This document shows positions 12,680 to 27,914 of a stretch of 34,236 bases of DNA, piece by piece; positions within the stretch are counted from its first letter, which is position 1; each line of letters starts with the position of its first letter. A model generated the notes under the pieces. That model had not been told where the DNA came from. It saw nothing but the letters and a program-made list of their open reading frames with translations, and did not search any database. Source of the stretch: Candidatus Woesearchaeota archaeon. GTDB taxonomy: Archaea > Nanobdellota > Nanobdellia > Pacearchaeales > GW2011-AR1. The stretch spans positions 7,254-41,489 of the forward strand of contig CAYWQI010000002.1 in NCBI GenBank assembly GCA_964460535.1. The letters run 5' to 3'. Made by a program: the position numbers and the translations under genes.

Positions 12680-12787
12680 GGGGCCCTAGCTCAGCGGGAG
12701 AGCACATGTTTGTTTTAGTCTTATATGGATTAAAGCAATGTGAAACTGAAGATCATGGTGTCCCGGGTTCGACTCCCGGGGGCCCCA
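12680..12787 (+). tRNA. tRNA-Phe(GAA) with a 36-nt intron (12709-12744) in the 5' strand of the anticodon stem
   Basis: Acceptor GGGGCCC/GGGCCCC plus discriminator A. D arm GCTC-AGCGGGA-GAGC, T arm CCGGG-TTCGACT-CCCGG, variable GTGTC. Anticodon loop CTGAAGA (GAA at 12748-12750) is closed by CATG(A)/TCATG only after removing 12709-12744. Confidence 0.85.
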
Positions 12788-17283: not shown

Positions 17284-17623
17284 AACCAAGCCAGAATAAG
17301 CCACCTTCTGTCTTTCCTTGTTTTTCTAAAGATAACAAACGGAAAGTGTTGACATTTCACTTTGCAGCTCACACCAATATTGTTTGGCTCTGACCTTGCA
17401 CTTGTTGGGATAGCCGTATCATCAAATCTCACTTTTCAAAGTTCAACTCAAGTTTCATAACTCAAAGTGAGCTGTGTCGTTTCTTTTCTAGAGCCTTGCC
17501 TCACAGCAATTCAGATTTCCTGAACAACTTTGTAGTGGGCGGACTTTCCTCAGAACTAAAATTCATATTCTGAATTTTTTGCAATTTAATGTATAGTTCT
17601 GAAGTCAACTTCCTGACTTGGTT
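17284..17623 (-). ncRNA. rnpB: RNase P RNA
   Basis: The minus strand reads GAGGAAAGTCCGCCCAC (CR-I) and ACAGAAGGTGGCTTATT (CR-V-like ACAGAAnnnGGCTTA). An 11-bp P1 helix forms between AACCAAGTCAG (5') and CTGGCTTGGTT (3'). The region is G+C-richer than its surroundings and has no ORF. Confidence 0.85.
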
Positions 17624-18447: not shown

Positions 18448-21162
18448 ATGAAAAAAGAGGAAAATAAAATTCTATGGCATTCCATTTCTGTTGAAGATAC
18501 TTTAAAGAATATTAATTCAAATGAAAAAGGTTTGCAAAAATCTGAAGCAAGAAAAAGACAGAATATCTATGGAAAAAATAAAATTTCAGAAAAAAAATCC
18601 ACTCCTTTGATTTTAAAATTTTTAAAACAATTTCATAACCCCTTGATTTATATTTTGTTTATTGCTATGACAATTTCATTTGTTTTTAAACATTTTATTG
18701 ATGGATATGTTATTTTTATTGTTATGTTTATAAATGCAATTATTGGATTTATCCAGGAGTATAAAGCAGAAAAATCTATTTCTGCATTAAAAAGATTAAT
18801 AATAACTTATGCCAAGGTTTATAGAGGAGGAGAATTATTGAAAGTTCCAGCTTCAGAATTAGTTCCAGGAGATGTGATTAGTTTAGAAGCAGGAGATAAA
18901 GTTCCTGCAGATTGTCGTATATTAAGTTGTAAAAATTTAAGAACACAAGAAGCTTCTTTAACAGGAGAATCATTACCCCAGGAAAAAAATATTAGGGTTG
19001 TTTCAGAAAAAGTTTCTCTTGGTGATAGGACAAATATGTTATTTATGTCTACTTCAGTTGTTTCTGGAAGTGCAAAAGCAGTTGTTGTAAAGATAGGAAA
19101 TAAAACTCAAATTGGAAAAGTTGCAAGTTCAATTCAGAAAGTTAAAAATCCCAAGATTCATATTAATGAGAAAGTTAGACTTCTTGCATTTCAGATGACT
19201 ATTTTTGCAAGTATTGGAGCATTTCTTGCTTTTTCTATTGGTTTTTTTATAAACAAGTTAGATTTTTTTGAAATATTTTTATTTACTGTAGCTAGTTTTG
19301 TTGGAGGAGTTCCAGAAGGTTTGCCTGCAATAATGGCTATTGTACTTGCTATTGGCGCAAGAAGAATGGCTAACAAACAAGCTGTAATAAGAAATTTATC
19401 TTCAGTAGAAACTCTCGGAGTTGCCACAATAATCGCAACTGACAAAACAGGAACTTTAACAAGTAATTCAATGAAATCAGAAAAAATAGTTTCTCTAGAA
19501 GGATTAAAAGATAAAAATAAGATAGTCTCAGTTTCTGGACAAGGATGGGAACCTATAGGAAAATTTTCTCAAAATAATAAATTTTTAAATCCTCTTGAAA
19601 ATCCTGAATTAAAAAAATTTCTAGAGATTTCAGGGTTATGTCATAATGGAAGGTTATTAAGAAAAGATGGAAATTATGAAATTATCGGTGATCCAACAGA
19701 AGTTTCACTTGCAGTTCTTGCAAAAAAAGCAGGTTTAAATAAAAAGAATTTAGAATCTAATTTTAAAATTATTGATGATTTTGCTTTTTCTTCAGATTTA
19801 AGATTTCGTGCAAGTTTAATTAAAGATAAAAAAAAGAACAAAAAAGAGATTTATACTTTAGGAGCATTTGAAGAAATCTTAAATAAATCTTCTTGGGTAT
19901 TTTCTCAAGGAAAAAAAATCTCTCTTGATAAAAAAACAAAAAAAGAGTTTTTAGATAAAGCATCAGAACTTTCTTCTCAAGGATTAAGAGTTCTTGCACT
20001 TGCTTATAGAGATGTTCCACACCATATTAATAATGTTTCTCCTAATTATGTTAAGGAATTGGTTCTTGTTGGTTTGGTTGGAATGAAAGACCCTCCTAAG
20101 AAGGGTGTTAAAGAAGCAGTTGAAAAAGCAAAAAAAGCAGGTATAAGGATTATAATGAAAACAGGAGACCATAAAGAAACAGCTTTGGCAATTGCAAAAG
20201 AAATTGGTTTAGTTGATAATAATTTTTCTGGAAAAGTTTTAACTGAATCTGATTTAGATAAATTAGATAAATGGCAATTTAAAGATGCAGTTAATAAATC
20301 AAATGTTTTTGCAAGAGTTACTCCAAAAACAAAATTGAAAATTATTCAAGCTTTACAAGAACAAGGAGAGATTGTTGCTATGACTGGTGATGGGATTAAT
20401 GATGCTCCTGCTTTAAAAAAAGCAGATATTGGAATTGCTATGGGAAAGGTTGGAACTGATGTTGCTCGAGAATCAAGTGAGGTTATCTTAACTGATGATA
20501 ATTTTGTTTCTATAGTTGATGCTGTTGAACAAGGAAGAATTGTTTTTCAGAATATAAGGCAAACAAGTTTTTTCTTAATTACTACAAATATTGCTGAAAG
20601 TGCTACTTTAGTTACTTCTTTGGCATTAAAGTTTCCATTACCTTTGTTACCTATACAACTTCTTTATTTAAATCTTGTAACTGATACTTTTCCAGGTATT
20701 GGACTTGCTATGGAACCAGGGCATTCTGAGGTTCTTGAAGAAAAACCTAGAAATAAGAAAGAGAATATTATTAATAAAGAACTTATTCCTTTTTTATTAA
20801 TTGTAGTTGGACTTATGGTTTTTTGCACAGTTCCAATTTTTCATTATTTTTTATCTCAAGGAATAAACAAGGCTCAAACAGCAGCATTTGTTTCAATGTC
20901 TTTTTTTCAATTATTTAATGTTTTTAATATGCGTTCATTAAAAAAATCTGCTTTTAAAATAGGTTTTTTAAGTAATAAATGGTTAAATTTTGGAATTTTA
21001 ATTTCATTTATATTAATGTTTCTAATAATATATATTCCATGGTTTGCAGAAATTTTTAATTTTGTTGCATTAGGTTTAAAAGAATTTATTTTTATTTTTT
21101 TAATAACTTCCACAGTATTTATTTTAGGTGAATTATATAAATTTTTTAGAATAAAAAAATAA
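18448..21162 (+). CDS. P-type cation-transporting ATPase (type II, Ca2+/cation pump-like)
   Basis: 904 aa with TGES, PEGLPA, the phosphorylation site DKTGTLT, KGAPE-region equivalents, TGDGINDAPALKKADIGIAMG and about 10 hydrophobic helices. Confidence 0.95.
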   Translation: MKKEENKILWHSISVEDTLKNINSNEKGLQKSEARKRQNIYGKNKISEKKSTPLILKFLKQFHNPLIYILFIAMTISFVFKHFIDGYVIFIVMFINAIIGFIQEYKAEKSISALKRLIITYAKVYRGGELLKVPASELVPGDVISLEAGDKVPADCRILSCKNLRTQEASLTGESLPQEKNIRVVSEKVSLGDRTNMLFMSTSVVSGSAKAVVVKIGNKTQIGKVASSIQKVKNPKIHINEKVRLLAFQMTIFASIGAFLAFSIGFFINKLDFFEIFLFTVASFVGGVPEGLPAIMAIVLAIGARRMANKQAVIRNLSSVETLGVATIIATDKTGTLTSNSMKSEKIVSLEGLKDKNKIVSVSGQGWEPIGKFSQNNKFLNPLENPELKKFLEISGLCHNGRLLRKDGNYEIIGDPTEVSLAVLAKKAGLNKKNLESNFKIIDDFAFSSDLRFRASLIKDKKKNKKEIYTLGAFEEILNKSSWVFSQGKKISLDKKTKKEFLDKASELSSQGLRVLALAYRDVPHHINNVSPNYVKELVLVGLVGMKDPPKKGVKEAVEKAKKAGIRIIMKTGDHKETALAIAKEIGLVDNNFSGKVLTESDLDKLDKWQFKDAVNKSNVFARVTPKTKLKIIQALQEQGEIVAMTGDGINDAPALKKADIGIAMGKVGTDVARESSEVILTDDNFVSIVDAVEQGRIVFQNIRQTSFFLITTNIAESATLVTSLALKFPLPLLPIQLLYLNLVTDTFPGIGLAMEPGHSEVLEEKPRNKKENIINKELIPFLLIVVGLMVFCTVPIFHYFLSQGINKAQTAAFVSMSFFQLFNVFNMRSLKKSAFKIGFLSNKWLNFGILISFILMFLIIYIPWFAEIFNFVALGLKEFIFIFLITSTVFILGELYKFFRIKK

Positions 21163-21217: not shown

Positions 21218-22169
21218 AGAAGCAATACAATCATAAACAAATGAGGCTTTTAGTAGTTGTCTGCTGAATACGTCGGACGAATCCTTCGTACTTACACAGC
21301 AACTCTATCAACGTTGTCTTTTACAACGGCCTTTGTTGTCTCGTTTTGCGGAGAGCTTCGAGCTTAGATGCATTCAGCTCTTATCTCTACAATGCGTAGC
21401 TATGCAGCCTGCTATTAACAACTGCTCACCAGAGGCATCCGAGTCCTGTTCCTCTCGTACTAAAAACTCGTTCCACTCAAACAACAACACATCTAGTAGA
21501 TATCATACAAACTGTCTCGCGACGTTCTTAACCCAGCTAACGATCCCTTTTAATGTGTGAACTCCAACACCCTTGCACGCTTCTGCACGCGCAGGTTAGG
21601 GAGAGCCGACAGCGAAATACCAAACCGCCCCGTCAATACGGACTATCGGGGGCGACCAGCTTATTATCCTTGGGGTAACTTTTCTATCAGACACGGCACC
21701 TATTAAAAGTGCACGTGGGTTCACTAGGCCACTCTTACGAGCCTGCATTTCTTGCTTTTCAAAATACAGTCAGACAAACTTTTGCCCTTACACTCAACTC
21801 CAGATTTCCAAGCTGGATGAGTTTGTCTTTGGGTCCTATCGATATCTTTTCGACAGGGCGCCGCCCCAGCCAAACTGCCCGCCTGCTGCTGTCTTCATAA
21901 AGAATAAGAAAATTTAAACAAAACAGGTGGTATTACAAGATCGCTCCGTCTTAACCGAAATTAAGACATCGACGCTCCCACCTATACTAGGCATTTCGTT
22001 TAAACCCTCAACAACAAGTTGCAGTAAAGTTCCACAAGGTCTTTGCTTCCCACTAGATGTCCGTGGCCCTTGCACCACGTAGTATTTTCAGAAGGCACCA
22101 ATTAGGGACAGTGACAACCTCGTTAAACCATTCATGCAAGTCGCAATTCATACGACAAGGCATTAAGCT

Positions 22170-23064
22170 CATAATGTTAATTAGAATCTTTTTCAATGAT
22201 GATTCAATTCTTTACATCGCTGTAAAGTTCGGACTATATCTTCTACAATTTTAAATTATTTTGTAGTCGAGCATGTAGTCTCTGAGGATTCTGGAATTAA
22301 TTAAAAAAAGATTTTGAAAATAATCTATCTAATGAATCATTTATTGATATCTGAATAAACTCTTTAGGAGGAATTGCGTAAAATTCCTCTCCAGATTTAC
22401 TTGATGTGTGTTTTAATTTTCCAGATTCAAATACTTTTGAAATTGGAATCCACAACCAAGTTTTATAATCAGAATCTTCATTTGATAGAACATACCAAAT
22501 ATTTAAATTAAATTTTCTTTGTATTGAAGAATATTTTTTTGTTTCTTTAGCATCAATAGGATATGTTTTATATTCCTTATTTATCTTTTTGTATTTTGTG
22601 TCTACAAAAATAAAACCTAGATTAGGAATTAAAATCAAAAAATCAGGTCTTTTTCCACTGAAATATTTTTTAAATGCAATAGATAATGTTTGAGTATCTT
22701 GTTGCAAATAAAGATAAGGAATATTGTGTTTATTTAACCATTCCTTAAATTTGATTTCAGTTTCATTTCCCTTTCTTTTTTCTTCTTTTCCTATTTCCAT
22801 ATTCTTCCATTTTGAGATATTTATTTAAAACTTTTTATTCCAGCCTTTCCTGCTGATTGTCTGCACTCATCTAATTTTTACGCGAACTAACTATTTAAAT
22901 TTTAGTTATCGTTGTATAGTGAGATACTCAGATATTCCAGCATATAGCTCAATTTTCTCTATTAGTTTAACTTTTTAATTCAACAAATTCAACTGTTTAT
23001 TTACTATAACACCTAGAGCGTTTTTATCATTTTTCGACGATAAAAACGTAAGGCAGCTTTGTTC
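22170..23064 (-). mobile_element. Group I intron in 23S rRNA, about E. coli position 1931/1932, just 3' of helix 69
   Basis: The 5' exon ends UAAGGU. Intron nt 6-16, AAGCUGCCUUA, pairs with the 5' exon (P1, U.G at the splice site) and with the 3' exon AGCUU (P10). The intron ends in G. Core elements CAGAGACUACAUGCUCGAC (R-like) and GAAGAUAUAGUCCGAAC (S-like) lie 3' of the ORF. Confidence 0.8.
22297..22800 (-). CDS. Intron-encoded protein with PD-(D/E)xK nuclease-like motifs (candidate homing endonuclease)
   Basis: 167-aa ORF on the same strand as the rRNA and wholly inside the intron. GKRPDFLILIPNLGFIFVDTKYKK fits PD...(D/E)xK, and the N-terminal E-rich helix resembles Hjc/restriction-fold nucleases. 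There is no LAGLIDADG, GIY-YIG, HNH or His-Cys motif. Confidence 0.55.
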   Translation of the reverse strand: MEIGKEEKRKGNETEIKFKEWLNKHNIPYLYLQQDTQTLSIAFKKYFSGKRPDFLILIPNLGFIFVDTKYKKINKEYKTYPIDAKETKKYSSIQRKFNLNIWYVLSNEDSDYKTWLWIPISKVFESGKLKHTSSKSGEEFYAIPPKEFIQISINDSLDRLFSKSFFN

Positions 23065-24978
23065 ACCTTAAGAGCGTCATAGTTACGCCCGCCGTTTAAT
23101 GGGCCTTAGCTCCCTTGAAAAGGAGTTTTAGACACCACCACTGGGCAGGTCTCGCCAAGTATACACGTCATTTCTGATTAGCACTTGGCTATGTTTTTGG
23201 TAAACAGTCGGGCCGTCCTTGTTACTGAGATCTATTAATGCACTCCTATTTCTAAAAGCACAAAAATAGACACCCCTTAAACCTAAGTTACAGGGCTAAC
23301 TTGCTGAATTCCCTTAATTGGTTTAATCTTTCATGTCTTAGCTTTTTAAGCCAGAGCACCAGTGCTGGTTATGGGTACAGCTAATTAAATCCGTTCAGTA
23401 AATAACTTTTCACTGGCTCTTGGAATCAGCAATTTTGTTCAAAAAATTTATTTATATCTAAGCATTACGCTCCATAAATTTCTTTTTTGAAACACTCTTC
23501 CGAGTGCTTACTTATCCAAAAGCATTATTTACAAAAGATTTAATTAGTTCAGGAATATTAACCTGATGTCCATCATTGTTCTCGATTAAGGAACAACTAA
23601 GGCGCTGACTAACCCTTGGCTAACATATATTGCCAAGGAAACCTTGCTCTTGCGACATTTTGCGTTCTCAGCAAAATCACATCTTACTATTACCAGGATT
23701 CTCATTACTATTCGTTCCATTCCTCCTTTAAGAGAAACTTCTGCACAAATAGTACGCCTGTTTACCAGTTTTCTAAAAATAGAAAACTCTAAAGTATCGG
23801 TATTATGCTTAGCCCCGTCCATTTTCAAGGCCCTAAACCTCAATAGGTGAGCTGTTACGCTTTCTTTAAATGATAGCTGCTTCTGGGCTTACATCCCTAC
23901 TGTCTCAGGTTTAAGACACTCTTCATGACACTTAGCATAAATTTAAGGACCTTAACTTTAGTCTCCCTTGTTCGGGTCTTGGAACAGTATCTTACATACC
24001 GCCCCTTATTCCTGTCTTACGCAGTCAATAGATTCTGAGTTGAAAAAATCTCCGTAAGCATTAGCCCCTGCGAGATTTATTCGTACTTTACACCATTAAC
24101 AAACTAGACAAGACTATGCGTAGGCATATTTCAACAGGAACCAGCCATTGCCGAATTAGATAAGCTTTTCACCCCTATTCACAGATCATCCAAGTGCATG
24201 TCCACAACAACGGTTCAGGCCTCCATCCCTCTTTCGAAAGACTTCACCTTGTCCATGAATAGATCATCCGGCTTCAGGTCTTTACCATATGACTAACGCC
24301 TTTTCAGACTTGCTTTCGCTTTGGTTACCCTTTAAAGGTTAGCCTCGCCATATAGAAAAACTCCCTGGCCCGTTTTTCGAAACGTACGTTACAATCCCTT
24401 AGGACAGTAACTAACTGTAACTGTTAGATTTCAAATCTTTTCACACTCTATTAAGAGTACTTTTCAGCTTTCCCTCGCGGTACTAGTGCTCTATCGGACT
24501 TTGATTTTATTTAGGGTTACCTGTTAATCCAGGCATATTCAGACACCCAATCCAGGATGCCCTACTCTTTTTGAAAATCCTTCCTCATTCTAAATCTACG
24601 GGACTATCACCCTCTATAGTGTTCCATTCCAGGAAACTTTGAATCAAATGATAGGAATTCATTTTCACCACATCTCTATTCTTATTACTAAGAAAGATTC
24701 AGCTTGCCCTAATCCCTTTTCGCTCTCTGCTAATAAGGGAATAATTATTTATTTTCTTTTCCTACTGGTACTAAGATGTTTCAATTCCCAGTGTATCTTA
24801 TCTGACAAATGCCAGACTATTCAGAAATCTCTGGATCAATATCTGCATGCGATTCCCCAGAGCTTTTCGCAGCTTGCCACGTCCTTCATCAGAATCAAAA
24901 CCAAGCTATCCATCTAACAGCATAAAATATGTTTGCTGATTGTCTTTTTACTTTTTCTAAAAGAAAAAGTGCCAACTA

Positions 24979-25183: not shown

Positions 25184-25256
25184 GGGCCCGTTGTCCAATG
25201 GTTTAAGATACCTCCCTTGCACGGAGGAGATCCGTGTTCGATTCACGGCGGGTCCA
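25184..25256 (+). tRNA. tRNA-Ala(UGC), encoded antisense to the flanking rRNA genes
   Basis: Acceptor GGGCCCG/CGGGTCC with a G3:U70 pair. Anticodon arm CCTCC-CTTGCAC-GGAGG (TGC at 25218-25220), T arm CCGTG-TTCGATT-CACGG, discriminator A. It is followed by a T7 run. The cloverleaf forms only on the + strand. Confidence 0.85.
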
Positions 25257-25390: not shown

Positions 25391-26836
25391 AAGGAGGTAA
25401 TCCATCTGCAGGTTCCCCTACAGATACCTTGTGACGACTTAACCTACCTTGTCTACCCATGGCTCTCCTTCGAAAAGTTTCACCATAAATAAACTCGGTT
25501 GGTTTGACGGGCAGTGTGTGCAAGAGACCGTGACATATTCACCGTTTGTTGATAACGAACGATTACTACCGATTCCAACGTCATGAGGCTGAGTTGCAAA
25601 CCTCAATCTGAACTAAGACAGACTTTAAGGGATTAGCTTCTCCTTTCAGAGTTGCATCTCGTTGTATCTGCCATTGACGCGCGCGTGTTGCCTAGGGGAT
25701 TCGGGCTGTACTCACCTAACGTAGCCCACACTTTCATCCCAGTTACCCGGGCAATCTGTATATAGTACACATAGTAAATATACATGTGGGTCTTGCCTGT
25801 TACCTGATTTAACAGGTCATCTCACGACACAGGCTGACGTCGGCCATGCTGCTCCTCTCAGCGTGTCAGGTAAGCCCTTTAGACTGACCTTCATTCTGCT
25901 GTCGCTCCTGGTGAGGTTCACGGTGTAGAATCTAATTGAACCGCACGCGTCACCGGTTGTAGTGTCTCCCCGCCAATTCCTTTAAGTTTCAGCCTTGCGA
26001 CTATACTTCCCAGGTAGTACACTCTTCGCCTTCGCTACAGCACTAATACCTCTCGAAGAGGTACTAATGTTTAGTGTACAGTGTTTACTGCTAGGACTAC
26101 AGGGGTATCTAATCCCTTTTGCGCCCCTAGCCTTCATCCCTTACTGTCAGAACTGTTCTCGTAAGGTGCCTTCGCTATTGTTAGTCCGTTTGGGATTAAC
26201 ACATTTTACCGCTACTCCAAACGTACTCCTTACGTCTCCCAGTCTCTAGCTAAATAGTATTTCCTGCACGCCCTATCTTTAAGAGATAAGATTTCACAGG
26301 AAACTTAGATAGCAAGCTACGGATGTTTTAGACCCAATAAAAATGGCTGCGACTTGGACCGCGAGTATTACCGCGGCGGCTGGCACTCGTCTTACCCAGT
26401 CCTTATTCGCCAAACTTTTTACATTTGGCAAAAGTTTTCCAATTGGAAAACACTCTGACTCACTCTATCACACTTTAGTGCATTGTAAAAGATGCCTAGC
26501 TGCTGCACCCCGTAGGGCTGGGAATAGTGTCTCAGATTCCCTCTCAGGGCTTCTCCGCTAAGAGCCCTTACAGATCTATGGCTTGGTGGGCTATTACCCC
26601 GCCAACAACCTAATCCGCCGCAGCCCCATCCTTAAGCTCGAATTTGAGAGATAAGTCTTTCCAGGGCATATCTCTTATCAGGTATTAGCCTCAGTTTCCC
26701 GAGGTTATCCCTGACTTAAGGGTAGGTTAGCTACGTGTTACTGAGCAGTTCGCTTTCCTCTGATAAATCAAAGAAAAAACTTGCATGCCTAAGCGCAAGT
26801 CAGAGAGCCGCAGCCGCCAGCAGGATCAACTGGATT
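25391..26836 (-). rRNA. rrs: 16S rRNA
   Basis: The reverse complement begins ATCCAGTTGATCCTGCTGGCGG and ends GGTATCTGTAGGGGAACCTGCAGATGGATTACCTCCTT. It contains GTGCCAGCCGCCGCGGTAATAC (archaeal form) and the 1492 region AAGTCGTCACAAGGTA. Confidence 0.95.
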
Positions 26837-27406: not shown

Positions 27407-27673
27407 TTAAAAATAGATATCATCATGATGTTTGAAATTTTCAAATGAGATTAATTTTTTATTCTTATTAAATTTAAAAACCAAAACAAAACTTCCAATA
27501 TGGACCTTTTTCAAATGTTGTAATGGCGCTCTTAAATTTTTATAATGTTCAACATTATATGCATTAACAACTTCTTCAATTTTTTTCAAAACCTGTTCAT
27601 AAATTTTTTTATCTCTTTTAGATAATTTGTTGAGAATTTTTTGTAAAAGGGGTTTAATCTCATAATTATACAT
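27407..27673 (-). CDS. relE: RelE/ParE-family toxin
   Basis: 88 aa with the pattern LNKLSKRDKKIYEQVLKKIEEV...HYKNL...L...KVHIGSFVLVFKF....KLISFENFKHHDDIY, typical of archaeal RelE. The antitoxin-like gene ends 1 nt upstream. Confidence 0.6.
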   Translation of the reverse strand: MYNYEIKPLLQKILNKLSKRDKKIYEQVLKKIEEVVNAYNVEHYKNLRAPLQHLKKVHIGSFVLVFKFNKNKKLISFENFKHHDDIYF

Positions 27674-27674
27674 T

Positions 27675-27914
27675 CTAACCCTCTATGATTTTTCTTAATT
27701 CATCTATATTTTTAAATGGAATTCCTTTTTGTTTTTTAACTTTTTTCATTTCAGTAATAAATTCAGGACGAAGTTCAGGTTCTAAAAAACTATCTTCATA
27801 AATTTGAGTTACCATTGCAATTGCTTGAGATTTATTTTTTAATCCAAATTTAGCTTTAATAATATTCAAAACTCTATCTTGCCTTTCATCTAAATTTATT
27901 AAATGTTGTACCAT
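27675..27914 (-). CDS. Putative antitoxin (small DNA-binding protein)
   Basis: 79-aa ORF immediately upstream of and co-oriented with the RelE-like gene. The N-terminal INLDERQDRVLNIIKAKFGL is compatible with a ribbon-helix-helix-type fold. Confidence 0.5.
   Translation of the reverse strand: MVQHLINLDERQDRVLNIIKAKFGLKNKSQAIAMVTQIYEDSFLEPELRPEFITEMKKVKKQKGIPFKNIDELRKIIEG

What the first reader, a model, noticed from the sequence alone, without database searches (positions are those of the whole stretch)
22170..23064. Group I intron in an archaeal 23S rRNA carrying a PD-(D/E)xK-like ORF instead of a LAGLIDADG endonuclease
The 23S gene contains an 895-nt AT-rich insert. In RNA sense the upstream exon ends UAAGGU. 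Intron nt 6-16 read AAGCUGCCUUA: GCCUUA pairs with UAAGGU (P1, with the diagnostic U.G at the cleavage site), and the adjacent AAGCU pairs with the first 3'-exon bases AGCUU (P10). The intron ends in G. Downstream of the ORF lie CAGAGACUACAUGCUCGAC and GAAGAUAUAGUCCGAAC, which closely resemble the conserved group I R and S elements (Tetrahymena CAGACUAAAUGUCGG and AAGAUAUAGUCGGACC). By hand alignment the site is about L1931, just 3' of helix 69 in the functional core. The 167-aa intron ORF has no LAGLIDADG, GIY-YIG, HNH or His-Cys box motif, but it shows GKRPDF...FVDTKYK, a PD-(D/E)xK arrangement. Only one PD-(D/E)xK homing endonuclease family is well established (I-Ssp6803I, in a bacterial tRNA intron). 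An rRNA-intron-borne member in an archaeon could therefore be a new homing endonuclease lineage.
Basis: partly seen in the sequence, partly recalled or inferred. Interest (0 to 1): 0.85.

Follow-up and report, generated by a model that had tools for sequence, protein, structure and literature searches.

The report
Archaeal rRNA intron with unusual nuclease gene
The 23S rRNA gene of this small (DPANN) archaeon carries a real self-splicing group I intron whose loop holds a nuclease gene from an undescribed family that moves around ribosomal RNA genes like a homing endonuclease, although no cutting activity has been shown.

Summary
Window 22170-23064 (minus strand) is an 895-nt group I intron at 23S position L1931. 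P1 has the U.G pair, P10 and the terminal G are present, and the P3-P9 core with the P3/P7 pseudoknot is present. In 12 homologous introns 99% of core cells pair and 21 of 35 pairs show compensatory changes. ORF-less relatives pass Rfam's RF00028 threshold.

Group I introns at L1931 and L1923 in DPANN archaea were reported in 2018, so the intron itself is a known kind.

The ORF is the new part. A 539-nt cassette sits in loop L6, made of a TATA-like box at -29 and a 167-aa ORF. The protein has no Pfam match. Its catalytic residues E15, D53, D67 and K69 are conserved, and a confident model (pLDDT 94) has an Hjc-like PD-(D/E)xK fold. It is not related in sequence to I-Ssp6803I.

Of 100 distinct homologs, 21 lie in rRNA introns (L1931, L1923, one in 16S). 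Another 54 stand free within a few hundred nt of a 16S or 23S end, some beside ORF-less introns. Position changes within clades, ORF similarity tracks rRNA similarity poorly, and dN/dS is 0.04-0.24.

Best reading: a new family of mobile homing-endonuclease genes associated with rDNA. This is inferred and untested.

The parts
21230..24939 (-). Host gene: archaeal 23S (LSU) rRNA, 2815 nt once the intron is removed
   Evidence: Rfam RF02540, 1923.5 bits, full model
22170..23064 (-). Group I intron (IB4-like), 895 nt, inserted after the base equivalent to E. coli U1931
   Evidence: Exon break points. RF00028 partial hit, E = 5e-6. Core covariation. It aligns end to end at 70% identity with the ORF-less intron of L045, which scores 69.4 bits against a gathering score of 50
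23065..23070 (-). 5' exon strand of P1 (UAAGGU); the last U forms the U.G pair at the 5' splice site
   Evidence: Read from the sequence. The internal guide changes with the exon at other sites: GCCGCA/UGCGGU in the 16S copy L071 and GGCCUC/GAGGCU at L1923 in L061
23049..23059 (-). Internal guide sequence: AAGCU (P10 strand, 23055-23059) and GCCUUA (P1 strand, 23049-23054)
23019..23048 (-). P2 hairpin (a 10-bp stem, CGUUUUUAUC/GAUAAAAACG)
   Evidence: Read from the sequence. Its length varies among homologs, so it was left out of the covariation test
22957..23018 (-). Tentative P2.1 extension closed by CUCUA/UAGAG
   Evidence: Sequence only; not tested
22947..22952 (-). P3 5' strand (UUGAGC); pairs with 22267-22272
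   Evidence: 4 of 6 pairs show compensatory changes, 100% paired
22851..22942 (-). P4-P5 domain: P4 UGCUG/CAGCA, P5 UCUG/CAGA, P5a CUCA/UGAG plus a variable extension
   Evidence: P4 is invariant. 2 of 4 P5 pairs are compensatory. P5a covaries by eye
22837..22843 (-). P6 5' strand (CUGGAAU); pairs with 22291-22297
   Evidence: 6 of 7 pairs show compensatory changes
22298..22836 (-). 539-nt gene cassette that fills loop L6 (promoter-like box, ORF); in ORF-less relatives L6 is only a few bases
   Evidence: L6 insert is 539-576 nt in 13 of the 15 L1931 introns; the two outliers are L049 (653 nt) and L060 (253 nt, no homolog of this ORF). In L045, L6 reads CUAGAAU-UGA-AUUCUAG
22822..22830 (-). TATA-like box (UUUUAAAUA) starting 29 nt before the ATG; suggests the ORF has its own archaeal promoter and a leaderless mRNA
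   Evidence: The same box sits at -27 to -29 in intronic and free-standing copies: 39 strict motif hits at those three positions against 1-4 at any other position, among 94 upstream regions. Its function is inferred
22297..22800 (-). 167-aa ORF: PD-(D/E)xK nuclease with E15, D53 (RPDF), D67-x-K69 (VDTK) and Q94
   Evidence: Residues invariant in 24 close homologs and at least 90% conserved in 110 diverse ones. AF2 pLDDT 94.2. Foldseek best matches are Hjc, E = 1.6e-5. dN/dS 0.04-0.24
22291..22297 (-). P6 3' strand (AUUCCAG); its first base is the last base of the stop codon
22276..22290 (-). J6/7 (AAUCCUC) and the P7 5' strand G-A(bulge)-GACUA; this is the classical R element
   Evidence: Rfam alignment. 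3 of 6 P7 pairs are compensatory
22267..22272 (-). P3 3' strand (GCUCGA)
22243..22266 (-). P8 hairpin (CUACAA...UUGUAG)
   Evidence: Sequence. A hairpin is present in all homologs but varies in length
22231..22242 (-). J8/7 (AAGAUA) and the P7 3' strand (UAGUCC); this is the classical S element
22210..22227 (-). P9 hairpin with a GCGA loop
   Evidence: 6 of 7 pairs are compensatory
22171..22209 (-). 3' peripheral region: tentative P9.1 (GAAUC/GAUUC, 22184-22205) and the conserved AACAU motif
   Evidence: Sequence. AACA is conserved in all 12 introns. The pairing was not tested
22170..22170 (-). Terminal G of the intron (omega G)
   Evidence: G in all 15 L1931 introns
22165..22169 (-). 3' exon strand of P10 (AGCUU)

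Best explanation
The insert is an IB4-type group I intron at 23S position L1931 in a DPANN archaeon related to Pacearchaeota and Woesearchaeota.

Inferred splicing mechanism (not assayed): P1 presents the U.G pair. An exogenous guanosine bound in P7 attacks the 5' splice site. The terminal G then takes its place, and P10 aligns the 3' exon for ligation. Genomes of this phylum almost always have a single rRNA operon, so the intron has to be removed for the ribosome to work.

Loop L6 carries an autonomous gene cassette, made of a TATA-like promoter box 29 nt before the ATG and a 167-aa ORF. The protein is a metal-dependent PD-(D/E)xK nuclease with an Hjc-like fold.

It belongs to a DPANN gene family that has not been described and that behaves as a mobile homing-endonuclease gene tied to rDNA. 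Copies sit in L6 of L1931 and L1923 introns, in a 16S intron, or free-standing at the ends of 16S and 23S genes.

Proposed action (inferred): the enzyme cuts an intron-less rDNA allele near L1923-L1931. For free-standing copies the target would be a site near their own insertion point. Repair from the occupied allele then copies the gene, and the intron if there is one, into the cut chromosome. The intron makes an insertion into an essential rRNA harmless.

Shown here: intron fold, ORF fold and catalytic residues, purifying selection, changes of position, decoupling from host rRNA.
Inferred: DNA cleavage, target site, homing.
For: Intron
- P1, P10 and the terminal G are present.
- The RF00028 hit covers R, S and P9, E = 5e-6.
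- On 12 homologs, 99.3% of cells pair and 21 of 35 pairs are compensatory. 0 of 500 shuffles reach this, and slid controls pair at 32-42%.
- ORF-less homologs L045 (69.4 bits) and L033 (57.7 bits) exceed the gathering score. L045 aligns end to end with the ORF-excised window intron.
- The splice junctions do not form a BHB-like duplex: -13.1 kcal/mol, equal to the shuffled mean.
- 203 of 208 complete Nanobdellota genomes have a single rRNA operon (bioRxiv 10.64898/2026.05.13.725050).

Protein
- E15, D53, D67 and K69 are conserved.
- Distant family members hit Pfam NERD, RmuC and Hjc.
- The model has pLDDT 94. Foldseek finds Hjc, SSV D212, RecU and I-Ssp6803I.
- dN/dS is 0.04-0.24.

Mobility
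- Of 100 distinct ORFs, 21 are in rRNA introns and 54 are free-standing within about 70-840 nt of an rRNA gene end, in every orientation.
- Free-standing copies are nested inside the intron clade.
- The same intron core and ORF (88.8% nt) sits at L1931 in L064 and at L1923 in L061, and in 16S in L071.
- Empty sites, ORF-less introns and ORF-carrying introns coexist.
- ORF identity and LSU identity correlate weakly (Spearman 0.34). The ORF is more similar than the rRNA in 83 of 351 pairs.
- L042 holds a truncated remnant.
- A LAGLIDADG intron occupies another site in the same 23S genes, which shows that these genes host homing elements.
Against: - No biochemical evidence exists for cleavage or for self-splicing.
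- The window intron alone scores below Rfam's gathering score (31.6 against 50).
- Several genomes with a free-standing copy from the intron clade, such as L008, keep an intact, consensus, intron-less L1923-L1931 site. Those enzymes therefore cannot simply cut that site, unless specificity has diverged or some immunity exists.
- The family looks like one well-conserved copy per locus under strong purifying selection, which would also fit a host-useful gene.
- I could not measure how patchy the gene is across complete genomes.
- The closest folds are Holliday-junction resolvases, which are specific for DNA structure rather than DNA sequence.
Confidence: 0.62

Rival explanations
1. The ORF is a host-useful or domesticated nuclease that merely lives beside or inside rRNA genes. 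It could be an Hjc-like resolvase or repair enzyme, or a factor that maintains rDNA or processes pre-rRNA. The intron copy would then be an accidental capture, not a homing endonuclease.
For: - The best structural matches are Hjc and RecU resolvases.
- Purifying selection is strong in all contexts.
- The window has one copy, and the gene has its own conserved promoter box.
- Genomes with a free-standing copy can keep an uninterrupted consensus L1931 site.
- More distant family members (33-34% identity) sit in ordinary contexts without rRNA.
Against: - A host gene has no obvious reason to sit in loop L6 of group I introns at three different rRNA sites.
- Position and orientation change repeatedly within clades.
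- ORF similarity is decoupled from rRNA similarity: for L016 and L108 the LSU is 98% identical but the ORF only 77%, and for L051 and L057 the LSU is 74% and the ORF 83%.
- A truncated remnant exists.
- The canonical acidic and lysine residues argue for a metal-dependent DNA nuclease rather than an EndA-type RNA enzyme.
Confidence: 0.22
2. The ORF encodes a maturase-like splicing cofactor for the intron and has no role in mobility.
For: Some intron-encoded proteins help splicing, as stated in PMC11270868. The ORF sits inside the ribozyme.
Against: - Most family members are not in introns at all.
- ORF-less introns of the same lineage persist, and L045 and L033 pass the Rfam threshold.
- The nuclease residues are conserved.
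- No RNA-binding domain was found.
Confidence: 0.04
3. The insert is not a self-splicing group I intron. It would instead be an archaeal bulge-helix-bulge intron cut by the tRNA splicing endonuclease, or an intervening sequence that is removed without ligation and leaves a fragmented 23S rRNA.
For: BHB introns are the classical archaeal rRNA introns (PMC6125680). The window intron is below the RF00028 gathering score.
Against: - The junction duplex is no more stable than shuffled sequence, and no bulge-helix-bulge forms.
- The full group I core shows compensatory changes.
- P1 guide sequences change with the exon at three insertion sites.
- ORF-less homologs pass the RF00028 threshold.
Confidence: 0.03

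Closest known systems
IB4 group I introns at LSU/1931 and LSU/1923 of DPANN and other archaea (Nawrocki, Jones & Eddy 2018, PMC6125680)
   Same: Same host gene, same two insertion sites, same phyla (Pace- and Woesearchaeota) and the same core. ORF-less relatives found here pass RF00028.
   Different: The 2018 set carried either no ORF or LAGLIDADG ORFs, and ORFs were scored only against Pfam. This intron carries a gene with no Pfam match and a PD-(D/E)xK fold in L6.
I-Ssp6803I, the PD-(D/E)xK homing endonuclease of a cyanobacterial tRNA intron (PDB 2ost)
   Same: Small protein encoded in a group I intron, with the PD-(D/E)xK catalytic fold. Foldseek match at E = 7e-4, TM 0.45-0.53.
   Different: No detectable sequence relationship: the PDB sequence and profile searches do not find it at E up to 10. 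The fold match is weaker than to Hjc. The host is an archaeal rRNA gene rather than a bacterial tRNA gene. Most members here are free-standing. Oligomeric state and target are unknown here; I-Ssp6803I is a tetramer (PMC3943268).
Archaeal Holliday junction resolvase Hjc (PDB 2wcw, 1gef, 1hh1; Pfam PF01870)
   Same: Best structural match (E = 1.6e-5, TM up to 0.66 on the target). Same order of catalytic residues: Glu in helix 1, Asp in strand 2, (D/E)xK in strand 3.
   Different: Only 10-16% identity. The window protein does not hit the Hjc Pfam model, and only 2 of 110 relatives do so, weakly. It has an extra C-terminal beta/alpha region (residues 120-167) and a genomic link to rDNA and introns.
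F-CphI and the psbA intron of cyanophage S-PM2 ('collaborative homing'), and free-standing homing endonucleases of T4-like phages ('intronless homing')
   Same: A free-standing nuclease gene next to a conserved gene that carries an ORF-less group I intron. L045, L108 and L033 show this arrangement. F-CphI also derives from a resolvase family, Endo VII (PMC6083498).
   Different: Different catalytic fold, and a cellular archaeal rDNA host rather than a phage gene. That the enzyme cuts the intron insertion site is not shown here. Some genomes carry the free-standing gene with no protecting intron.
LAGLIDADG homing endonucleases in 23S introns at L1931 (CPR bacteria, PMC11270868; I-CpaI in a Chlamydomonas chloroplast, from memory)
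   Same: Same rDNA site and the same niche, an ORF in a peripheral loop of a group I intron.
   Different: Unrelated protein fold and catalytic mechanism.

Membership tests
Group I intron (Rfam RF00028; IB4-like) | P1 helix between the 5' exon end and an internal guide, with U.G at the splice site | tested here: met
   UAAGGU/GCCUUA. The guide changes to match the exon at L1923 and in 16S
Group I intron (Rfam RF00028; IB4-like) | Terminal G, and P10 pairing with the 3' exon | tested here: met
   G at 22170; AAGCU/AGCUU; G in all 15 homologs
Group I intron (Rfam RF00028; IB4-like) | Conserved core P3-P4-P5-P6-P7-P9 with the P3/P7 pseudoknot and a bulged base in P7, supported by covariation | tested here: met
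   99.3% paired, 21 of 35 pairs compensatory, 0 of 500 shuffles; slid controls 32-42%
Group I intron (Rfam RF00028; IB4-like) | Score at or above Rfam's gathering threshold (50 bits) | tested here: inconclusive
   The window scores 31.6 bits (E = 5e-6) with the ORF splitting the model. ORF-less homologs score 69.4 bits (L045) and 57.7 bits (L033), and L045 is 70% identical end to end to the ORF-excised window intron
Group I intron (Rfam RF00028; IB4-like) | Guanosine-dependent self-splicing | not testable with these tools
   Needs an in vitro splicing assay or transcript reads across the ligated junction
PD-(D/E)xK nuclease superfamily | Catalytic signature: Glu in helix 1, (P)D in strand 2, (D/E)xK in strand 3 | tested here: met
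   E15, P52-D53 and D67-x-K69 are invariant in 24 close homologs and at least 90% conserved in 110 diverse ones
PD-(D/E)xK nuclease superfamily | alpha-beta-beta-beta-alpha-beta core fold | tested here: met
   AF2 pLDDT 94.2, pTM 0.89. The top 50 PDB matches are almost all PD-(D/E)xK enzymes: Hjc, D212, RecU, I-Ssp6803I, DpnI, HincII
PD-(D/E)xK nuclease superfamily | Match to a curated family model (Pfam or NCBIfam) | tested here: not met
   The window protein has no Pfam hit. NCBIfam HYExAFE gives 17.3 bits against a cutoff of 60. Only distant relatives hit NERD (11), RmuC (9) or Hjc (2), weakly
I-Ssp6803I-type homing endonuclease family | Sequence homology to I-Ssp6803I | tested here: not met
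   Not found by phmmer or a profile search of the PDB at E up to 10. There is only a fold-level match, TM 0.45-0.53
Homing endonuclease (functional class) | Encoded in a peripheral loop of a self-splicing intron, or free-standing between conserved genes | tested here: met
   In L6 of L1931, L1923 and 16S introns; free-standing at rRNA gene ends
Homing endonuclease (functional class) | Empty, ORF-less and ORF-containing alleles coexist, and the gene tree is decoupled from the host | tested here: met
   truncated remnant in L042
Homing endonuclease (functional class) | Site-specific cleavage of the unoccupied allele, followed by gene conversion | not testable with these tools
   Needs protein expression and cleavage assays. 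One caution: L008 keeps a consensus empty site next to a free-standing copy
Archaeal Hjc resolvase (PF01870) | Membership of the Hjc sequence family | tested here: not met
   The window protein has no PF01870 hit. The profile against PDB Hjc gives only E = 0.32. Identity is 10-16% in structural alignments
Archaeal bulge-helix-bulge intron | BHB motif formed by the two exon-intron junctions | tested here: not met
   The junction duplex is -13.1 kcal/mol, the same as shuffled sequence (-13.1 +/- 3.3). The minimum-energy fold forms P1 instead

The most novel reading that the evidence does not exclude
This DPANN family is a new homing-endonuclease lineage with an Hjc-like PD-(D/E)xK fold, and the first of that fold in archaea and in rRNA introns. 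The loci found here would then be a natural series showing how mobile introns arise:
1. free-standing genes at rDNA borders;
2. free-standing genes paired with protecting ORF-less IB4 introns, as in 'collaborative homing';
3. repeated capture of the promoter-plus-ORF cassette in loop L6 at L1931, L1923 and a 16S site.
Probability: 0.35. Interest if true: 0.8.

Novelty: new variant of a known kind. Interest (0 to 1): 0.62.

Why it matters
If the protein is a site-specific endonuclease, it adds a new family to the six recognised homing-endonuclease families listed in PMC6083498. It would be a compact 165-175 aa scaffold. The representative library holds 362 sequence clusters (50% identity level) for the wider family, and their targets lie in highly conserved rDNA.

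It would also show that earlier surveys of rRNA introns, which recognised intron genes only through Pfam, missed a whole class of such genes.

The coexistence of empty sites, ORF-less introns with a neighbouring free-standing gene, and introns that contain the gene gives a cellular, archaeal test case. The idea that homing-endonuclease genes and introns meet by 'collaborative homing' has so far been documented in phages.

There is also a practical point. These inserts and flanking genes sit in and around the 16S and 23S genes of DPANN archaea, where they can disturb primer sites, assembly and binning.

Tried and rejected
- Rfam at gathering threshold found no intron in the window. The E-value mode was needed.
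- Pfam, the PDB sequence search and the PADLOC library gave nothing for the ORF. A PDB profile search gave only chance-level matches, interleukin-1 beta tied with Hjc at E about 0.3.
- The first AF2 run, on 24 close homologs, was poor (pLDDT 58) and was not used. The run on 110 diverse homologs was used.
- NCBIfam 'HYExAFE' matches 91 of 110 relatives, but the window protein and the best hit (E = 1.2e-9) fall well short of membership (cutoff 60 bits), and the name appears in no paper in the library. It adds no functional information.
- PHROG 28481 matches at E = 7e-8 but has no known function. tblastn against 50,697 phage records found nothing.
- Fixing the E. coli coordinate by BLAST was imprecise. 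Only four E. coli records matched, and the two I inspected carry indels. I relied instead on H69 landmarks from memory and on the published LSU/1931 label.
- I looked for rRNA next to distant homologs at 33-34% identity (L123, L126, L127). There was none, so the link to rDNA is a property of the DPANN subfamily only.
- I looked for exon substitutions that could protect genomes carrying a free-standing copy but no intron. There was no consistent difference.
- tRNA genes do not explain the loci without rRNA.
- BHB-intron reading: rejected.
- Non-functional ORF: rejected by dN/dS.
Full report
**What is in the window**

An archaeal rRNA operon lies on the minus strand: 16S at 25392-26836 and 23S at 21230-24939. 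The 23S match is 3710 nt long against a model of 2987 positions. The exon alignment breaks between 23065 and 23064 and resumes at 22169. This leaves an 895-nt insert with GC 0.21-0.33, inside rRNA of GC 0.41-0.51.

- The 5' exon ends UAAGGU.
- Intron nt 11-16 (GCCUUA) pair with it, giving a U.G pair at the splice site.
- Intron nt 6-10 (AAGCU) pair with the first 3' exon bases, AGCUU.
- The intron ends in G.
- The R-like and S-like elements follow a 167-aa ORF at 22297-22800.

The insertion point corresponds to E. coli U1931|A1932. I derived this from the helix 69 landmarks, from memory. It matches the 'LSU/1931' label that Nawrocki et al. 2018 use for introns of this kind in the same phyla. 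A BLAST transfer to E. coli was only accurate to about one base.

**Is it a group I intron?**

Rfam finds nothing at its gathering threshold. In E-value mode RF00028 aligns to 22210-22344 at 31.6 bits, E = 5e-6. The alignment covers J6/7-P7, P3', P8, J8/7-P7' and P9, and the 5' half is lost because the ORF splits the model.

I collected homologous introns through the ORF from species genomes and metagenomes. I removed the L6 insert from 12 of them and aligned them. On a structure I defined from the window sequence (P3, P4, P5, P6, P7 as a pseudoknot, P9):
- 99.3% of cells form standard pairs.
- 21 of 35 pairs show changes on both sides.
- No shuffle out of 500 reaches any of the observed measures.
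- Sliding the partners by 1-3 columns drops pairing to 32-42%.

P7 has the usual bulged base. The guide sequence also changes with the exon:
- GCCUUA with UAAGGU at L1931;
- GGCCUC with GAGGCU at L1923 (L061);
- GCCGCA with UGCGGU in a 16S copy.

Two ORF-less relatives pass the RF00028 threshold: L045 at L1931 with 69.4 bits and L033 at L1923 with 57.7 bits. The L045 intron aligns end to end with the ORF-excised window intron at 70% identity. Its L6 is a bare hairpin loop where the window has 539 nt.

The two splice junctions do not form a bulge-helix-bulge motif. I regard the group I assignment as settled at the sequence level. Self-splicing itself is untested. Genomes of this phylum nearly always have one rRNA operon, so removal of the intron must be efficient.

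**Is that new?**

It is not. Nawrocki, Jones and Eddy (2018) reported 39 archaeal group I introns. They include IB4 introns at LSU/1931 and LSU/1923 in Woesearchaeota and Pacearchaeota, and 21 of the 39 carry LAGLIDADG genes. The intron here is a further member of that group.

**The ORF**

- The protein has no Pfam match and no sequence match in the PDB.
- It has 173 close relatives (62-89% identity, 160-216 aa) in the clustered protein database, mostly from Pacearchaeota and Nanoarchaeota metagenome-assembled genomes. All but one of the source names are 'hypothetical protein'; one JGI record says 'predicted HTH transcriptional regulator'.
- It has 362 representative clusters in an exhaustive search.
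- E15, K50-R51-P52-D53, D67-x-K69 and Q94-R95 are invariant in 24 close relatives.
- E15, Q34, R51, P52, D53, D67, K69, W102 and W115 are kept in at least 90% of 110 diverse relatives.
- Some distant relatives weakly match the Pfam families NERD, RmuC, Hjc and HSDR_N, all of the PD-(D/E)xK superfamily.
- With the diverse alignment, AlphaFold gives a confident model (pLDDT 94.2, pTM 0.89) with the alpha-beta-beta-beta-alpha-beta core.
- Its best PDB matches are archaeal Hjc resolvases (E = 1.6e-5, TM up to 0.66). After these come fusellovirus D212, the SPARDA nuclease domain, I-Ssp6803I (rank 23, E = 7e-4, TM 0.45-0.53), RecU and several restriction enzymes.
- Viral matches are uncharacterised phage proteins and resolvases.

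So the PD-(D/E)xK reading is right. The protein is not a member of the I-Ssp6803I sequence family or of the Hjc family. Pairwise dN/dS is 0.04-0.24 in intronic and free-standing copies, so the gene is functional.

**The unexpected part: where the family lives**

I classified the context of every fetched homolog by aligning the window's rRNAs to the loci. The 100 distinct ORF sequences are distributed as follows:

| Context | Count |
|---|---|
| L6 of an L1931 intron | 14 |
| L6 of an L1923 intron | 6 |
| The same intron core inserted in 16S near position 955/956 (L071) | 1 |
| Free-standing, just after the 23S 3' end, same strand | 25 |
| Free-standing, convergent on the 23S 3' end | 6 |
| Free-standing, just after the 16S | 3 |
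| Free-standing, divergent from the 16S 5' end | 17 |
| Free-standing, upstream of the 16S, same direction | 3 |
| No rRNA in the fetched flanks (5 with 2.3-3 kb on each side, 2 on contigs cut short on one side) | 7 |
| Contig too short to tell | 18 |

The free-standing copies lie 59-838 nt from the rRNA gene end. The seven loci without rRNA have varied neighbours. The window has only the intronic copy.

Three of the '23S-downstream' loci carry an ORF-less intron in the same 23S gene: L045 and L108 at L1931, and L033 at L1923. L063 probably does as well. Others have no intron at either site. L060 has both introns in tandem, separated by the 8-nt exon CUUAAGGU.

**Evidence that the gene is mobile**

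- In a neighbour-joining tree, the intronic copies form one clade. Copies at L1931, L1923 and 16S, and free-standing copies, are interleaved in it.
- L064 (L1931) and L061 (L1923) come from hosts with 92.7% identical 23S exons. They share the intron core plus ORF at 88.8%.
- Pairwise ORF identity tracks identity of 23S positions 1900-2700 only weakly (Spearman 0.34). The ORF is more similar than the rRNA in 83 of 351 pairs. Hosts with 98% identical 23S (L016 and L108) have ORFs only 77% identical.
- The window's closest 16S relatives (L039 and L041, 89.5%) carry only a 44-46% identical copy, upstream of the 16S.
- L042 holds a truncated C-terminal remnant.
- The same 23S genes can hold a LAGLIDADG intron at a second site. 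The motif IAGFLDGDGS is visible in L004 and L057. The PD-(D/E)xK gene therefore occupies the same niche as accepted homing elements.

**Expression**

A TATA-like box (TTTATAAA, TTTAAATA and variants) preceded by an A-rich stretch starts 27-29 nt before the ATG, in both intronic and free-standing copies. Strict motif hits number 39 at those three positions, against 1-4 at any other position. In the window the box is at 22822-22830.

This suggests that the cassette brings its own archaeal promoter and makes a leaderless mRNA. That would solve the problem of translating a gene buried in an rRNA intron. It is an inference from sequence.

**Most likely mechanism**

The intron splices by the standard group I pathway. 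The L6 cassette encodes a metal-dependent PD-(D/E)xK endonuclease that acts as a homing endonuclease. It would cut unoccupied rDNA alleles, and double-strand-break repair would copy the gene, and the intron if present, into them.

The arrangement 'ORF-less intron plus neighbouring free-standing gene' resembles the collaborative homing described for F-CphI and the cyanophage psbA intron. F-CphI also derives from a resolvase fold (PMC6083498).

I put this reading at about 0.6. The main difficulty is that some genomes with a free-standing copy keep a consensus, uninterrupted L1923-L1931 site (for example L008). Those enzymes must have other targets, or immunity of some kind. I could not measure presence or absence across complete genomes.

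The main rival, at about 0.2, is a host-useful Hjc-like nuclease that merely resides at rDNA. Maturase and BHB or fragmentation readings are unlikely.

**Novelty and verdict**

The intron is a new member of a known kind. The ORF family appears undescribed: no paper in the searchable library mentions it, and the two systematic surveys of rRNA inserts recognised intron genes only through Pfam.

Overall this is a new variant of a known kind of element. It combines a group I intron with a homing-type nuclease gene of a fold so far represented among homing endonucleases by a single bacterial family, and it has an unusual free-standing lifestyle bound to rDNA. Interest is moderate to high, and the functional claim awaits biochemistry.

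Noticed in passing
window 25184-25256 (+): The tRNA-Ala(UGC) gene in the 16S-23S spacer lies on the opposite strand from the rRNA genes. It is nearly identical to the spacer tRNA of relatives L039 and L041, where it is on the same strand as the rRNAs (also in L006 and L024). A TTTATAAA box lies about 30 nt upstream of it on the + strand. This suggests a local inversion with its own promoter.
   Followed up: partly
window 12680-12787 (+): Rfam calls a tRNA spanning 108 nt (49.1 bits) that ARAGORN does not report. It is probably a tRNA gene with an archaeal intron.
   Followed up: no
window 17290-17617 (-); L033 4022-4355; L045 4394-4610: The RNase P RNA gene lies 1-4 kb downstream of the 23S gene in the window and in two relatives, which looks like conserved synteny. 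In the window a P-type ATPase gene (18448-21162) and a thymidine kinase gene lie between them.
   Followed up: partly
L004 4327-5091; L057 3804-4578; also L054 and L056: There is a second insert of 630-775 nt in the same 23S genes, at window-LSU position 2524. In L004 and L057 it encodes a protein of about 150 aa with a clear LAGLIDADG motif (IAGFLDGDGS). It is probably the LSU/2593 intron type listed by Nawrocki et al..
   Followed up: partly
L043 968-1538: A 570-nt insert in the 23S gene near window-LSU position 1153-1172 holds a 102-aa ORF of unknown type. Its nature was not examined.
   Followed up: no
L071 116-1028: The same IB4-like intron core and ORF are inserted in a 16S gene after ...GCGUGCGGU (about E. 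coli 955/956), with a matching guide GCCGCA. This is an ectopic copy of the 23S intron.
   Followed up: partly
L060 1-1604; L061: L060 has tandem L1923 and L1931 introns separated by an 8-nt exon (CUUAAGGU). The nuclease ORF is in the first intron. L6 of the second holds 253 nt with an unrelated 62-aa ORF.
   Followed up: partly
window 27407-27914 (-): Two small adjacent ORFs lie just upstream of the 16S gene: 79 aa with a DUF2683 match, and 88 aa with no match. They may be a toxin-antitoxin-like pair. L001 and L002 also have a 79-aa ORF between the 16S and the nuclease gene; I did not compare the two.
   Followed up: no
L011, L017, L020, L025, L028, L031 (record titles); P0037: Contigs carrying this DPANN-type gene and DPANN-like rRNA are labelled Methanomassiliicoccales, Thermoplasmata, Methanosarcinales, 'bacterium' or Heimdallarchaeota in their genome bins. 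These are probably mis-binned rRNA-region contigs.
   Followed up: no
L006, L009, L016, L020, L033, L059, L073, L106, L108 (23S helix 69 region): One group of these 23S genes reads GGCGGGCCUAAUUCCUGAGGCUC where the others read GGCGGGCGUAACUAUGACGCUC. That is a different helix 69 loop sequence, just upstream of the intron sites.
   Followed up: no
L001, L002, L005 (16S at 2102-3542 of L001): In this Pacearchaeota lineage the 16S gene is followed by the nuclease gene, a histidine phosphatase gene and an integrase gene, with no 23S within 5 kb. The rRNA genes are therefore unlinked there.
   Followed up: no
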